64,000 nt of DNA, taken from NCBI RefSeq assembly GCF_003334815.1, contig NZ_QOWO01000012.1; one strand, given 5' to 3'. The translations under genes were made by a program, and so were the position numbers. Origin of the DNA: Escherichia coli. Lineage in GTDB: Bacteria; Pseudomonadota; Gammaproteobacteria; Enterobacterales; Enterobacteriaceae. Below the pieces are notes generated by a model that had not been told where the DNA came from, searched no databases, and saw only the letters and a list, made by a program, of their open reading frames with translations. The stretch's first letter is position 1; each line of letters begins with the position of its first letter. Below, one piece after another: positions 1,321-44,476 of this stretch.

Positions 1321-1401
1321 GGCAGGATAAGGCGTTTACGCCGCATCCGGCATTTGAGCAGGATGCCTGATGCGACGCTGATAGCGTCTTATCAGGCCTA
1401 C
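1321..1401. repeat. REP/BIME palindromic units between cpxA and yiiM
   Basis: ggataaggcgtttacgccgcatccggca and gcctgatgcgacgctgatagcgtcttatcaggcctac match the enterobacterial REP consensus. Confidence 0.85.
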
Positions 1402-10185: not shown

Positions 10186-10190
10186 ACACT

Positions 10191-10414
10191 GCCGGATGCG
10201 GCGCGAGCGCCTTATCCGGCCTACGGGTCGGCAACAGTTGTAGGCCTGATAAGACGCGACAGCGTCGCATCAGGCATTGATTGCCGGATGCGGCACAAGT
10301 GCCTTATCCGGCCTACAGGTCGGCAATAGTTGTAGGCCTGATAAGACGCGACAGCGTCGCATCAGGCATTGATTGCCGGATGCGGCGCGAGCGCCTTATC
10401 CGGCCTACGGGTCG
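10191..10414. repeat. Tandem BIME: about 2.4 copies of a 92-bp unit of paired inverted REPs
   Basis: gccggatgcggc...cttatccggcctac...gtaggcctgataagacgcgacagcgtcgcatcaggca recurs with period 92 (unit starts 10191, 10283, 10375). Confidence 0.9.
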
Positions 10415-10451
10415 TGCATCCGACAACACCGAATTTACAGGAACACAGAAC

Positions 10452-14869: not shown

Positions 14870-16617
14870 TGCTAAACGAACGCCAGTTAAAGATTGTCGA
14901 TCTGCTGGAGCAACAGCCGCGCACGCCTGGCGAGCTGGCGCAACAGACTGGCGTTTCAGGCAGGACCATCCTGCGTGATATTGACTATCTCAACTTCACC
15001 CTTAACGGCAAAGCCCGCATTTTCGCCAGTGGCAGTGCGGGCTATCAGCTGGAAATCTTCGAGCGCCGCAGCTTTTTTCAGTTGCTGCAAAAGCACGATA
15101 ACGACGATCGGCTGCTGGCGCTGTTATTACTGAATACTTTCACTCCCCGTGCGCAACTCGCCTCGGCGCTTAATTTGCCAGAAACGTGGGTAGCAGAGCG
15201 TCTGCCCCGGTTAAAACAGCGTTATGAACGCACTTGTTGCCTGGCCAGCCGCCCTGGTTTGGGCCATTTCATTGATGAGACAGAAGAGAAACGCGTTATC
15301 TTGCTGGCGAACTTGCTGCGCAAAGATCCGTTTTTAATTCCGCTGGCGGGCATAACACGAGACAACCTTCAGCATTTATCCACGGCCTGCGACAACCAAC
15401 ACCGCTGGCCGCTCATGCAGGGTGATTATCTCTCCAGCCTGATTCTGGCGATTTACGCCCTGCGTAATCAACTGACCGATGAGTGGCCGCAATATCCCGG
15501 TGACGAGATAAAACAAATCGTTGAACATAGCGGTCTGTTTCTTGGTGATAACGCTGTAAGAACCCTGACGGGTTTGATAGAGAAACAGCATCAGCAAGCG
15601 CAGGTAATTTCAGCCGATAATGTGCAGGGGTTGCTGCAAAGGGTGCCGGGCATCGCGTCATTGAATATTATTGATGCGCAGCTGGTTGAGAATATTACCG
15701 GGCATTTATTACGTTGCCTTGCCGCACCAGTGTGGATTGCTGAGCACCGCCAGAGCAGCATGAATAACCTGAAAGCCGCCTGGCCTGCGGCCTTTGATAT
15801 GAGTCTGCACTTTATTACGCTACTGCGTGAACAGCTCGATATTCCCCTTTTCGACAGCGATCTGATCGGTTTGTATTTTGCCTGTGCGCTGGAGCGGCAT
15901 CAAAACGAACGCCAGCCGATCATTTTGCTCTCGGACCAGAACGCGATTGCCACTATTAATCAGCTCGCCATTGAGCGCGATGTTTTAAATTGTCGGGTAA
16001 TTATTGCCCGTAGCTTAAGCGAACTTGTTGCCATTCGCGAAGAGATTGAGCCGTTATTGATCATTAACAACAGCCATTATTTACTGGATGACGCGGTAAA
16101 TAATTACATCACCGTAAAAAATATCATTACGGCTGCCGGTATCGAACAAATAAAACATTTTCTGGCGACGGCATTTATTCGCCAACAGCCGGAGCGTTTT
16201 TTCTCTGCCCCCGGAAGTTTTCATTATTCGAATGTACGCGGTGAAAGCTGGCAACATATTACCCGGCAAATTTGTGCGCAATTAGTCGCACAACACCATA
16301 TTACCGCCGATGAAGCACAACGCATCATCGCCCGCGAAGGCGAAGGTGAAAACCTGATTGTTAATCGCCTCGCCATCCCACATTGCTGGAGCGAACAGGA
16401 GCGACGTTTTCGTGGATTTTTTATTACCCTCGCCCAACCAGTTGAGGTGAATAACGAAGTCATTAACCATGTCTTGATCGCCTGCGCCGCCGCCGATGCG
16501 CGTCATGAGCTAAAAATATTTAGCTATCTGGCAAGCATATTGTGTCAGCATCCGGCGGAGATTATTGCCGGGTTAACAGGATATGAGGCATTTATGGAGT
16601 TACTTCACAAGGGGTGA
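14869..16617 (+). CDS. frvR: Putative frv operon transcriptional regulator FrvR
   Basis: 582-aa ORF whose ATG shares one base with the frvX stop (TAATG); N-terminal HTH-like region (PGELAQQTGVSGRTILRDIDYL). Confidence 0.8.
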   Translation: MLNERQLKIVDLLEQQPRTPGELAQQTGVSGRTILRDIDYLNFTLNGKARIFASGSAGYQLEIFERRSFFQLLQKHDNDDRLLALLLLNTFTPRAQLASALNLPETWVAERLPRLKQRYERTCCLASRPGLGHFIDETEEKRVILLANLLRKDPFLIPLAGITRDNLQHLSTACDNQHRWPLMQGDYLSSLILAIYALRNQLTDEWPQYPGDEIKQIVEHSGLFLGDNAVRTLTGLIEKQHQQAQVISADNVQGLLQRVPGIASLNIIDAQLVENITGHLLRCLAAPVWIAEHRQSSMNNLKAAWPAAFDMSLHFITLLREQLDIPLFDSDLIGLYFACALERHQNERQPIILLSDQNAIATINQLAIERDVLNCRVIIARSLSELVAIREEIEPLLIINNSHYLLDDAVNNYITVKNIITAAGIEQIKHFLATAFIRQQPERFFSAPGSFHYSNVRGESWQHITRQICAQLVAQHHITADEAQRIIAREGEGENLIVNRLAIPHCWSEQERRFRGFFITLAQPVEVNNEVINHVLIACAAADARHELKIFSYLASILCQHPAEIIAGLTGYEAFMELLHKG

Positions 16618-16620
16618 ACT

Positions 16621-16645
16621 GTGTCGGATGCGCCGCATCCGACAC
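16621..16645. terminator. Perfect palindrome at the frvR / yiiG convergent junction, likely bidirectional terminator
   Basis: gtgtcggatgcg-c-cgcatccgacac (12-bp arms) lies 4 nt after the frvR stop and about 20 nt after the yiiG stop; flanking U-tracts are weak. Confidence 0.55.
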
Positions 16646-16666
16646 TGCATTTATCATCAAAAACGT

Positions 16667-17722
16667 TTAACGCAGGCTATTATAGTCATCAACCATTTCG
16701 TTGTACTCGCGTAATGCTCTCGGGAAAGAGTCTTCGACCATCCAGCTTGAGTTTGCGTCCTGAAGTTGCTCTTTATCCCAGTCAGAGTACGGGACTTTAT
16801 CTCTGATGCGGCGAACGTATTTTTTAGCCTCGAGTTGATACTGGCCTGCCGAATTAATAAACGAGAAATTCATGCCGCCTTTATCCGCTTCTTTGGCCTG
16901 CGCCACTAGCGTTTCCAGTTCAGACACTTTCTTCATTGCCGCTTCTGCATCAAACTTATCTTGCGATATCAGGTTATTAATTTGTTTCGCTGAAATCATG
17001 ACTGCCAGAGAGTAGTAGTGGAATGTTTTCCCTTCTCTTTCTTCAATATTTTTCAGTTCCGCAAGCTGACGCTTATCATTAATTTCCTGAATCGCCGCAT
17101 GATAAGATTCGGCTACAGGTTCAAAGGCTTCCAGATTTTTTAAGAATGTCTGGTGCAGCGTTTTCCCTTTCGCAAACGCATCGTCTTTATAATTTTCCTG
17201 GGTGTAATATTTATCCATTTCGTTAATGGTATTACCCAACGCCACGGCAGCATCGATATAACTCACCGCCACGCCATCAATTGGTTGCAGCGCAGGCGTT
17301 AACGCCACAGCACTTTTTACGCCTTTTTCACACTCAGCGAGGTTGGATTCACTAATGCCGTAGATGCCATAAACAGTACGCTCTTCACCGGTAGGCCCCT
17401 GTTTAAAATCTTTCAGCCAGTCAGCATAACGCGCCAGACTGCGCTGTACCGGGATCTGTAACTTGTTGTAGCACTTGATATAGACATCCATTTTTTCGTC
17501 GAAAACCGCTTGTTCATCGACCACCGGTTGCGCAGGTGTTTCAGGTTTAGCTTCTGCTTTTGCAACGGGAGCTTCAGTAGGTTTCGCTTCAGGAGCTGGT
17601 GCGGCAGGTTGACTATTGGCAGGCGGGAGCGTTTCTGTTTCGGCTTTTTTATCATCACAACCCGTCAGACCGAGGGACATGATGGCGACTATAATAGCGG
17701 AAGATAATAAATTCCTTTTCAT
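16667..17722 (-). CDS. yiiG: Lipoprotein YiiG (DUF3829-type)
   Basis: 351-aa ORF with signal peptide and lipobox (MSLGLTGC), low-complexity Ala/Pro/Glu-rich linker; recognised as YiiG. Confidence 0.8.
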   Translation of the reverse strand: MKRNLLSSAIIVAIMSLGLTGCDDKKAETETLPPANSQPAAPAPEAKPTEAPVAKAEAKPETPAQPVVDEQAVFDEKMDVYIKCYNKLQIPVQRSLARYADWLKDFKQGPTGEERTVYGIYGISESNLAECEKGVKSAVALTPALQPIDGVAVSYIDAAVALGNTINEMDKYYTQENYKDDAFAKGKTLHQTFLKNLEAFEPVAESYHAAIQEINDKRQLAELKNIEEREGKTFHYYSLAVMISAKQINNLISQDKFDAEAAMKKVSELETLVAQAKEADKGGMNFSFINSAGQYQLEAKKYVRRIRDKVPYSDWDKEQLQDANSSWMVEDSFPRALREYNEMVDDYNSLR

Positions 17723-44443: not shown

Positions 44444-44476
44444 AAAAAAAAACCTGCCATCGCTGGCAGGTTTTTT
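44444..44476 (-). terminator. Intrinsic terminator of typA
   Basis: Minus strand: cctgccagcgatggcagg followed by a T9 run, about 20 nt after the typA stop. Confidence 0.85.

What the first reader, a model, noticed from the sequence alone, without database searches (positions are those of the whole stretch)
16621..16645. Perfect 25-bp palindrome at the frvR / yiiG convergent junction
gtgtcggatgcg-c-cgcatccgacac sits in the 49-nt gap between two convergent stop codons and would form the same 12-bp hairpin in transcripts from either side. It lacks a clean U-tract on either strand, so it may be a Rho-assisted or RNA-stabilising element rather than a classical intrinsic terminator. The core tcggatgcg/cgcatccga resembles half of a REP unit.
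Basis: seen in the sequence. Interest (0 to 1): 0.25.

Follow-up and report, generated by a model that had tools for sequence, protein, structure and literature searches.

The report
Collapsed REP pair between frvR and yiiG
The 25-bp perfect palindrome is real, but it is the already catalogued E. coli repeat REP298, the fused outer ends of an older pair of inverted REP repeats, and it most likely acts as an ordinary protective RNA hairpin at the ends of two converging genes.

Summary
GTGTCGGATGCG-C-CGCATCCGACAC lies at 16621-16645, in the 49-nt gap between the frvR and yiiG stop codons. Both transcripts fold it into an 11-bp, 3-nt-loop hairpin of -18.2 kcal/mol, and neither has a U-tract.

The window is E. 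coli K-12 MG1655, and the element is already annotated as REP298.

Comparative data show its origin. About 200 E. coli genomes of several divergent haplotypes, and another Escherichia species, carry a form 46 bp longer at the same spot. That form is a degenerate forward REP plus a canonical reverse REP, and it folds into one long hairpin. The K-12 palindrome is exactly the basal stem of that hairpin, so it is an internal-deletion product. It has lost the GTAG tag and the mismatch bulge that the REP transposase RAYT needs, so it is probably an immobile relic.

Published data place a Rho-binding peak over it and a bicyclomycin-sensitive termination region about 115 nt downstream on the yiiG strand. 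This fits the known model in which a REP hairpin protects the mRNA 3' end while Rho terminates further on. No 3'-end mapping at the hairpin was found, so function is inferred.

Already known; low interest.

The parts
16621..16645 (.). Perfect 25-bp palindrome (12-nt arms, central C). It forms an RNA hairpin of 11 bp with a 3-nt loop on both transcripts.
16622..16642 (.). Extent annotated as REP298 in the MG1655 reference (NC_000913.3 4088082-4088102).
   Evidence: Supplementary table of bioRxiv 10.64898/2026.03.23.713779. Coordinates mapped as window x = 4104724 - genome position.
16630..16631 (.). Junction of the 46-bp deletion relative to the long (two-REP) alleles. The left REP head GTCGGATG is joined to the right REP arm CGCCGCATCCGAC. 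The placement is ambiguous by 1-2 nt because of microhomology in the imperfect direct repeat C[A/G]CCGC.
   Evidence: MAFFT alignments.
16615..16617 (+). frvR stop codon (TGA), 3 nt before the stem.
16667..16669 (-). yiiG stop codon (TAA on the - strand), 21 nt before the stem.
16528..16660 (-). Published Rho rut peak P_R10_3411 (4088064-4088196, yiiG-sense strand), overlapping REP298 by 20 bp. C/G is 1.32 across the peak and 1.9 in the first 80 nt after the hairpin.
   Evidence: literature table; composition.
16505..16505 (-). Position of the highest Rho score (3.0, p = 4.8e-5) for bicyclomycin-dependent readthrough on the yiiG-sense strand, antisense to frvR (NC_000913.3 4088219). Resolution is low because 800-nt windows were used.
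   Evidence: Adams et al. 2021, supplementary file 2.
16655..16656 (.). Site of a separate 6-bp indel in the yiiG 3' UTR. It is absent in K-12 and present as ACCAAA or AGCAAA in other alleles.

Best explanation
The palindrome is REP298, a catalogued but atypical member of the E. coli REP family.

Origin (shown by comparison). The ancestral frvR/yiiG spacer held two inverted REP units, tail to tail. One was a degenerate forward unit next to frvR. The other was a canonical reverse unit (GTAG-GTCGGATAAGGCG-TTTA-CGCCGCATCCGAC) next to yiiG. In the lineage that now makes up most E. coli, 46 bp between the imperfect direct repeats C[A/G]CCGC were lost. This fused the two outer REP heads into a perfect 25-bp palindrome. 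The product keeps a hairpin of REP strength. It has lost the GTAG tag and the internal mismatch bulge that the REP transposase RAYT needs, so it should be an immobile relic.

Function (inferred from the established REP/Rho model plus locus-specific published data). The hairpin is transcribed into the 3' UTR of both converging mRNAs. On the yiiG transcript, RNA polymerase passes the hairpin. Rho loads on the C-rich RNA just downstream and terminates roughly 100 nt further on, inside antisense frvR. 3'-to-5' exonucleases then trim back to the hairpin, which protects the mRNA. The same hairpin would protect frvR mRNA when that operon is expressed. Because it begins only 3 nt after the frvR stop codon, it may also hinder translation termination there.

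Confidence is about 0.9 for identity and origin and about 0.45 for the protective-hairpin function.
For: Identity.
- The window is 100% identical to MG1655.
- The element is listed as REP298 between convergent frvR and yiiG.
- The 8-mer CGGATGCG of the REP head occurs 15 times in the window against 3.6 expected, mostly in canonical REPs.

Origin.
- The long form is present in 202-205 of 5426 E. coli genomes. Its haplotypes are 84.7-100% identical to one another and include strain SE15.
- The long form is also present in Escherichia sp. MOD1-EC7003.
- The yiiG-proximal full REP is also present in E. whittamii and Escherichia sp. E1V33.
- The short form is nearly invariant: 3608 of 3981 copies of the 71-mer are identical. 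It always sits on a derived frvR 3' haplotype.
- An ETEC group carries the long form with the K-12-type right flank.
- The alignment shows one clean 46-bp gap.
- The long form folds as a single hairpin of -41 and -39 kcal/mol whose basal stem is the K-12 arms. A single REP scores -18.8 and -19.2 kcal/mol, against -18.2 for the palindrome.
- The Rfam REP-based model naRNA4 gives 30-39 bits on the long-form REP and nothing on the K-12 palindrome at E <= 10.
- RAYT binding needs the GTAG tag and the mismatch bulge.

Function.
- There is no U-tract on either strand.
- A Rho rut peak and a bicyclomycin-sensitive transcript overlap the element.
- A Rho termination region lies about 115 nt downstream on the yiiG strand.
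- C/G is 1.9 in the 80 nt after the hairpin.
- The general model is that REPs and other U-less stem-loops protect Rho-terminated transcripts.
- REP-containing convergent pairs show elevated expression.
Against: - No mapped 3' end at the hairpin was found. The held Term-seq tables of Adams et al. have no yiiG or frvR entry.
- Read counts at the locus are low: 53 upstream and 27 downstream without bicyclomycin.
- REPs are not uniformly associated with longer mRNA half-lives.
- frv is poorly expressed (my own knowledge). About 1200 E. coli genomes lack frv and the palindrome altogether, so the element is dispensable.
- E. albertii has a short palindrome at the same place. Under my polarity this requires a second, parallel deletion.
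- Flanking haplotypes are mosaic, so no clean allele tree supports the polarity.
Confidence: 0.6

Rival explanations
1. It is a neutral fossil. The palindrome is just what a deletion left of a REP pair, and it has no effect on either gene.
For: - It is a deletion product.
- About 1200 genomes lack it along with the frv operon.
- The E. albertii counterpart is a much weaker hairpin, -11.8 kcal/mol.
- No 3' end is mapped at it.
- The invariance of the short allele can be explained by its youth.
- REP effects are reported to be context-dependent and often undetectable.
Against: - The hairpin is as stable as a full REP, and stable 3' stem-loops generally block exonucleases.
- In K-12-type alleles the stem is two pairs longer than the REP itself, through matching changes on both sides: ATG..CAT became GTG..CAC.
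- A hairpin occupies this convergent junction even in Superficieibacter, with an unrelated sequence.
Confidence: 0.3
2. It is a bidirectional terminator that stops RNA polymerase at the hairpin itself. This could be a weak intrinsic terminator or one helped by head-on polymerase collisions between the converging genes.
For: - A GC-rich hairpin lies between convergent genes.
- A stem-loop is required to position collision-driven termination.
- 78 REPs lie within predicted bidirectional terminators.
- The + strand tail UGCAUUUAUCAUC has some U.
Against: - Tail scores of 1.48 and 0.64 lie within the window-wide background (mean 0.71, sd 0.73). There is no mirrored A-tract and U-tract. The hairpins at bipA and CsrC in the same window do have them.
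- The terminator scan does not call the site.
- Bicyclomycin-sensitive readthrough beyond the hairpin shows that polymerase passes it on the yiiG strand.
- frv transcription is probably too low to give frequent collisions (my own knowledge).
Confidence: 0.1
3. It is a translation-damping REP for frvR. A hairpin starting 3 nt after the stop codon stalls the terminating ribosome and lowers FrvR output. This is not exclusive of the best explanation.
For: REPs fewer than 16 nt from a stop codon are reported to down-regulate translation of the upstream gene (Liang, Rudd and Deutscher 2015, as summarised in PMC12306157). The gap between the frvR stop and the stem is 3 nt.
Against: - This has not been tested for this locus, and the primary paper was not held.
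- The long alleles also place the left REP head 4 nt from the stop, so nothing about this role is specific to the palindrome.
- yiiG is 21 nt from the stem and falls outside the rule.
Confidence: 0.15
4. It is a DNA-level element: a protein operator, a gyrase or IHF site of the kind found in BIMEs, or a cruciform.
For: It is a perfect palindrome. BIMEs are known to bind gyrase, IHF and Pol I (my own knowledge).
Against: - The units and linker motifs that define BIMEs are deleted.
- The sequence is explained entirely by REP heads.
- It occurs at a single locus per genome.
- The preprint reports no long-range REP-REP chromosomal contacts (section headings).
Confidence: 0.03

Closest known systems
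E. coli REP / palindromic units (Y-type), as catalogued in the MG1655 annotation (REP1-REP355)
   Same: - It is extragenic and lies at gene 3' ends.
- The head sequence is (T)GTCGGATGCG / CGCATCCGAC(A).
- The 13-nt arm CGCCGCATCCGAC is identical to that of the orthologous full REP.
- The RNA hairpin has REP-like stability.
- It is already listed as REP298.
   Different: - It is 21-25 bp, not about 35 bp.
- The stem is perfect, without the AA/GC mismatch bulge.
- The centre is 1 nt rather than an apical stem-loop.
- There is no GTAG/CTAC tag.
- Both arms are 'head' arms.
- The 25-mer is single-copy.
REPIN / BIME inverted REP doublets (Bertels and Rainey; Gilson and Bachellier)
   Same: The long alleles at this locus are such a doublet and fold into one long hairpin. 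The K-12 element is the base of that hairpin.
   Different: K-12 retains only the two outer heads. There is no spacer, no second arm of either unit, and no RAYT recognition features.
Protective 3' stem-loops of Rho-terminated transcripts (Peters et al. 2012; Dar and Sorek 2018)
   Same: - A stable stem-loop without a U-tract sits just after the ORF.
- C exceeds G downstream.
- A rut peak and a bicyclomycin-sensitive region lie downstream on the yiiG strand.
   Different: A steady-state 3' end at the hairpin and dependence on exonucleases have not been shown for this locus.
Bidirectional intrinsic terminators at convergent genes
   Same: A single palindromic hairpin is shared by two converging transcripts.
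   Different: It lacks the flanking A-tract and U-tract that the hairpins at window 44447-44476 (just after bipA) and 53446-53481 (CsrC 3' end) have.

Membership tests
REP / palindromic unit (E. coli) | Extragenic location at the 3' end of genes | tested here: met
   It lies in the 49-nt gap between the convergent stop codons.
REP / palindromic unit (E. coli) | Conserved head sequence G(C/T)CGGATGCG(G/A)CG shared with other copies | tested here: met
   On the - strand, CGGATGCGGCG matches the heads of canonical REPs in the window. The arm CGCCGCATCCGAC is identical to that of the full REP in orthologous long alleles.
REP / palindromic unit (E. coli) | Imperfect stem of about 35 nt with a conserved mismatch bulge and an apical loop | tested here: not met
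   The stem is perfect with 12-nt arms and one central base. Canonical copies have GGATAAGGCG opposite CGCCGCATCC.
REP / palindromic unit (E. coli) | 5' GTAG (3' CTAC) tetranucleotide, required with the bulge for RAYT binding and cleavage | tested here: not met
   The flanks are AACT|GTGTCGG and CCGACAC|TGCA, with no GTAG or CTAC. The long allele L006 has GTAG. The requirement comes from Messing et al. 2012.
REP / palindromic unit (E. coli) | Present in many copies per genome | tested here: inconclusive
   The 25-mer occurs at one locus per genome. Its halves belong to a multi-copy family, and similar REP-head mini-hairpins occur at about 5 loci per genome.
REP / palindromic unit (E. coli) | Curated annotation as a REP in the MG1655 reference | tested here: met
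   It is listed as REP298, 4088082-4088102, convergent frvR/yiiG. The copy of NC_000913.3 available here shows no repeat features, so the annotation could not be cross-checked.
Rfam naRNA4 (RF02564, REP-pair RNA) | Covariance-model match | tested here: not met
   There is no hit at E <= 10 in 16400-16900. Four BIMEs in the window pass the gathering score. The long-form REP scores 30-39 bits, below threshold.
REPIN / BIME doublet | [quoted passage not shown] | tested here: not met
   K-12 keeps only the two heads. The feature is met in the long alleles of 202-205 genomes and in Escherichia sp. MOD1-EC7003.
Intrinsic (Rho-independent) terminator, bidirectional | GC-rich stem-loop followed by a U-tract (at least 5 U in 8) on each transcribed strand | tested here: not met
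   The stem is present. The tails have 4 of 8 U and 2 of 8 U, with scores of 1.48 and 0.64. The scan does not call the site.
Intrinsic (Rho-independent) terminator, bidirectional | Mapped RNA 3' end a few nt after the stem | tested here: inconclusive
   The held Term-seq tables have no yiiG or frvR entry. Expression is low, and other data sets were not held.
Protective stem-loop of a Rho-terminated transcript | Stable U-less stem-loop after the ORF, with a C>G region or rut site immediately downstream | tested here: met
   The hairpin scores -18.2 kcal/mol. C/G is 1.9 over the next 80 nt on the yiiG-sense RNA. A published rut peak overlaps it.
Protective stem-loop of a Rho-terminated transcript | Bicyclomycin-sensitive readthrough downstream | tested here: met
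   This comes from the literature only: Rho score 3.0 at 4088219 (+), and an overlapping bicyclomycin-sensitive transcript at 4087941-4088943.
Protective stem-loop of a Rho-terminated transcript | Steady-state 3' end at the stem base that depends on PNPase and RNase II trimming | not testable with these tools
   This needs 3'-end mapping in wild-type and exonuclease-mutant strains.
Translation-regulating REP (Liang, Rudd and Deutscher 2015) | Hairpin begins fewer than 16 nt after the stop codon | tested here: met
   The gap is 3 nt after the frvR stop, so the feature is met for frvR. The gap is 21 nt after the yiiG stop, so it is not met for yiiG. The rule is as summarised.
Translation-regulating REP (Liang, Rudd and Deutscher 2015) | Ribosome stalling and trans-translation at the stop codon | not testable with these tools
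   This needs reporter fusions or ribosome profiling.

The most novel reading that the evidence does not exclude
Inverted REP doublets may collapse recurrently into short perfect 'head-to-head' palindromes. The collapse would occur by slippage between the GCG-N-CGC motif that both REP heads carry. That motif is itself palindromic, so it forms a built-in direct repeat in an inverted pair. The products lose the GTAG tag and the bulge, and so escape RAYT, but keep a REP-strength RNA hairpin. This would be a route by which a mobile repeat becomes a fixed, host-serving 3'-end element.

Hints:
- E. albertii carries the same design of head-to-head palindrome at the same place, with a different central base (T instead of C). 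Under my polarity this arose independently of E. coli.
- A palindrome of the form GCCGGATGCG-C-CGCATCCGGC lies at mglC/preA.
- The phoE/crl junction shows a doublet versus mini-hairpin polymorphism, though its junction differs.
Probability: 0.3. Interest if true: 0.35.

Novelty: already known. Interest (0 to 1): 0.12.

Why it matters
It matters little beyond housekeeping. The element is a catalogued REP at a poorly expressed locus, and its likely role is the standard one for REPs at convergent junctions.

The modest added value is evolutionary. The locus gives a clean natural before-and-after pair, a two-REP doublet versus its collapsed 25-bp stem. That pair could be used to test two questions. 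The first is what a REP hairpin does for mRNA 3' ends independently of REP-specific sequence features. The second is how REPs lose mobility and become fixed.

Tried and rejected
Rejected explanations
1. Intrinsic terminator. Rejected on the tail scores and the scan.
2. Other genomic copies of the palindrome. There are none at 20 or more of 25 matched bases. The two 'places' per genome are the two strands of the same site.
3. Origin by simple deletion inside one REP. By inspection this would give GTCGGAT|GCCGC..., which lacks the CG that is present.
4. Origin by template-switch 'perfecting' of a single REP. Rejected because the left arm and its flank are orthologous to the left unit of the long alleles.
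5. Short form ancestral, long form an insertion. Rejected because the insertion would have to recreate a canonical REP exactly. In addition, the long alleles are diverse and shared across species, while the short allele is uniform and sits on a derived flank. The short palindrome in E. albertii remains a caveat.
6. Known RNA family. Rfam gives nothing significant.

Dead ends
7. The NC_000913.3 copy available here shows no repeat features.
8. Liang et al. 2015, its follow-up, and the SEnd-seq paper were not held.
9. The supplements of Dar and Sorek 2018 and of two other 3'-end studies were not held.
10. I did not build an allele tree from the flanks, because the haplotypes are visibly mosaic.

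Full report
OBSERVATION

Window 16621-16645 reads GTGTCGGATGCG-C-CGCATCCGACAC, a perfect palindrome with 12-nt arms. It lies in the 49-nt gap between the frvR stop codon (TGA, 16615-16617, + strand) and the yiiG stop codon (TAA, 16667-16669, - strand). The stem starts 3 nt after the frvR stop and 21 nt after the yiiG stop.

No shuffle of the window reproduces the pattern. Perfect hairpins with arms of at least 12 nt and loops of at most 8 nt are expected 0.03 times in 64 kb. Five occur. The other four are:
- a hairpin just after bipA;
- a hairpin at the CsrC 3' end;
- a 13+0 palindrome just after dsbA;
- a head-to-head REP pair.

As RNA, both strands give the same hairpin of 11 pairs with a 3-nt loop, at -18.2 kcal/mol and z-scores of -4.5 and -5.4. 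The twelfth pair cannot close over a 1-nt loop.

Neither strand has a U-tract. The consensus scan does not call the site. T-tract scores are 1.48 for UGCAUUUAUCAUC on the + strand and 0.64 for AGUUCACCCC on the - strand. A true U-run scores about 5-7, and the window-wide mean is 0.71.

IDENTITY

The window is E. coli K-12 MG1655 (100% identity). Window position x corresponds to NC_000913.3 position 4104724 - x.

A supplementary table of Harris et al. 2026 (bioRxiv 10.64898/2026.03.23.713779) lists 'REP298', convergent, frvR/yiiG, at 4088082-4088102. This equals window 16622-16642. The element is therefore already catalogued as a REP.

Within the window, the REP-head 8-mer CGGATGCG occurs 15 times against 3.6 expected. 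Most of these hits lie in canonical units of the form tGCCGGATGCGgcg....cgcCTTATCCGGCCTAC.

ORIGIN

Allele counts among 5426 complete E. coli genomes:

| Allele | Genomes |
|---|---|
| Short form (71-mer, at least 80% covered) | 3981, of which 3608 identical |
| Long form | 202-205 |
| frv operon and palindrome absent | about 1200 |

The long form reads: frvR stop - ATGTCGGATGCACCGCTAACACGGCTTAACGACGTTTAG - GTCGGATAAGGCGTTTACGCCGCATCCGAC - yiiG. It consists of a degenerate forward REP followed by a canonical reverse REP. One haplotype carries the full GTAG tag (L006).

The reverse unit is a genuine multi-copy REP. By megablast it hits a median of 5-6 places per genome. It also gives 30-39-bit, below-threshold matches to Rfam's REP-derived model naRNA4. 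The K-12 palindrome gives no match at all at E <= 10.

MAFFT alignments show a single clean 46-bp gap in K-12-type alleles. GTCGGATG is joined directly to CGCCGCATCCGAC, and the gap is flanked in the long form by the imperfect direct repeat C[A/G]CCGC.

Polarity. Four observations point to the long form being ancestral.
- The long form occurs in Escherichia sp. MOD1-EC7003. The yiiG-proximal full REP also occurs in E. whittamii and Escherichia sp. E1V33.
- Long haplotypes are diverse, 84.7-100% identical, and include strain SE15.
- All short E. coli alleles share a derived frvR 3' haplotype, GGAG..CACAAG..AACTGTG. Long alleles and the E. albertii remnant share GGCG..CGCCAG..AAT[GA]AT.
- An ETEC O169:H41 group carries the long form with the K-12-type right flank.

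An insertion that exactly rebuilt a canonical REP from a 25-bp palindrome is implausible. I conclude that the palindrome is a deletion derivative.

Structure. The long form folds as one long hairpin (-41 and -39 kcal/mol) in which the two outer heads pair. K-12 retains exactly that basal stem. A single REP scores -18.8 and -19.2 kcal/mol against -18.2 for the palindrome, so hairpin strength was preserved.

Caveats. E. albertii lacks frvR apart from about 40 nt of its 3' end. It has its own short palindrome, TCGGATGCG-T-CGCATCCGA, at the same position. Under my polarity this is a parallel deletion. In addition, the flanking haplotypes are mosaic, so no clean allele tree is available.

A possible reason for recurrence (inference): the inner part of each REP head, GCG-N-CGC, is itself palindromic. 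An inverted REP pair therefore carries it as a direct repeat, and slippage between the two copies yields exactly ...GGATGCG-N-CGCATCC....

Related mini-hairpins built from REP heads sit at other convergent junctions:

| Junction | Sequence |
|---|---|
| phoE/crl | TTGCCGGATG-TGATG-CATCCGGCA |
| yceI/trhO | TTGCCGGATG-GCACG-CATCCGGCAA |
| mglC/preA | ATTGCCGGATGC-GCT-GCATCCGGCAAT |
| mglC/preA, strain 21F61 | ...GCG-C-CGC... |

At phoE/crl, one divergent strain carries a doublet about 70 bp longer, made of a canonical REP and a degenerate inverted REP. Nearly all other genomes have the short hairpin. Its junction does not match the simple slippage rule.

MOBILITY

Messing et al. 2012 showed that RAYT (TnpA-REP) needs the 5' GTAG tag. 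They also showed that correcting the AA/GC mismatch bulge abolishes binding. The K-12 palindrome has neither feature. It should therefore no longer be a RAYT substrate. This is an inference.

FUNCTION

The evidence is indirect.

Evidence on the yiiG-sense strand (window - strand):
- The preprint's supplementary table intersects REP298 with a Rho rut peak, P_R10_3411, at 4088064-4088196, with log10 enrichment 0.55 in the 'NusG minus' set. I take this to be a helicase-SELEX data set, which is my inference. The table also lists an overlapping bicyclomycin-sensitive transcript at 4087941-4088943.
- Adams et al. 2021 list a Rho termination region at 4088219 (+), antisense to frvR. Its Rho score is 3.0 and p = 4.8e-5. 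Read counts are 53 upstream and 27 downstream untreated, and 92 and 141 with bicyclomycin. This position is window 16505, about 115 nt past the hairpin.
- The 80 nt after the hairpin have C/G = 1.9.

This is the arrangement described by Peters et al. 2012 and by Dar and Sorek 2018. A stable stem-loop without a U-tract is followed by a rut site. Rho terminates downstream, and exonucleases trim back to the protective stem. REP-containing convergent gene pairs also show elevated expression of both genes.

Evidence against, or missing:
- The held Term-seq tables have no 3' end for yiiG or frvR.
- Expression at the locus is low.
- REP effects on mRNA half-life are not uniform.

On the frvR side there are no data. 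[quoted passage not shown]

Superficieibacter electus also has convergent frvR and yiiG, with an unrelated GC-rich hairpin in the gap. This is weakly consistent with a hairpin being useful at this junction.

VERDICT

The element is an already annotated REP (REP298). Structurally it is a collapsed REP doublet. It fails the REP features linked to mobility (GTAG tag, mismatch bulge) but keeps the RNA hairpin. Its most likely role is the standard REP role at a Rho-terminated 3' end, and it could equally be a neutral relic. Interest is low.

Noticed in passing
L002 (NZ_CP122448.1) versus window 16667-16686: About 1200 of 5426 E. coli genomes lack the frv operon. In strain 85.0412, rhaM is followed by a carbohydrate porin gene and then a yiiG pseudogene. 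Homology to K-12 resumes about 19 nt inside the 3' end of yiiG, so the rearrangement breakpoint abuts the position of the REP element.
   Followed up: partly
L022 (phoE/crl, K-12-like) and L029 (strain AH21I008): The phoE/crl convergent junction carries a REP-head mini-hairpin, TTGCCGGATG-TGATG-CATCCGGCA (-19.4 kcal/mol), in 5348 of 5426 genomes. One divergent strain has a form about 70 bp longer, made of a canonical REP plus a degenerate inverted REP. This is the same kind of polymorphism as at frvR/yiiG.
   Followed up: partly
L021 (strain 21F61) and L025 (strain EC596), mglC/preA spacer: A canonical-flavour twin of the palindrome, ATTGCCGGATGCG-C-CGCATCCGGCAAT, precedes a run of full REPs in one strain. 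Another strain has a GCT centre and far fewer REPs, which indicates copy-number variation in this BIME cluster.
   Followed up: no
L010 (E. albertii NBRC 107761), just downstream of yiiG: E. albertii lacks frvR but keeps about 40 nt resembling its 3' end. This is followed by its own short palindrome, TCGGATGCG-T-CGCATCCGA (-11.8 kcal/mol).
   Followed up: partly
window 44447-44476 and 53446-53481: Two hairpins have mirrored A-tracts and T-tracts: AAAAAACCTGCCA-TCGC-TGGCAGGTTTTTT just after bipA (overlapping an Rfam STnc370 hit) and GAAAAAAGGCGACAGA-TTAC-TCTGTCGCCTTTTTTC at the CsrC 3' end. They are a useful contrast to the tract-less palindrome.
   Followed up: no
window 60637-60662: A perfect 26-bp palindrome with no spacer, AAAGCCCGTGAAT|ATTCACGGGCTTT, lies about 18 nt after the dsbA stop.
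   Followed up: no
window 1321-1398, 10243-10313, 10335-10405, 51114-51191: Four BIME units pass the Rfam gathering score for naRNA4 (RF02564). The rhaD-rhaA spacer (about 10190-10430) holds three tandem REP units at a 92-bp period.
   Followed up: no
L004 (NMBU_W05E18) and L020 (E597): In these short-form strains yiiG is annotated as a pseudogene (missing N-terminus). The 3' UTR also carries 6 extra bp (ACCAAA) compared with K-12.
   Followed up: no
L012 (Superficieibacter electus): frvR (63% amino-acid identity) is convergent with yiiG here too. The spacer holds an unrelated GC-rich hairpin, GCCCGG..CCGGGC, so the gene arrangement predates the genus Escherichia.
   Followed up: partly
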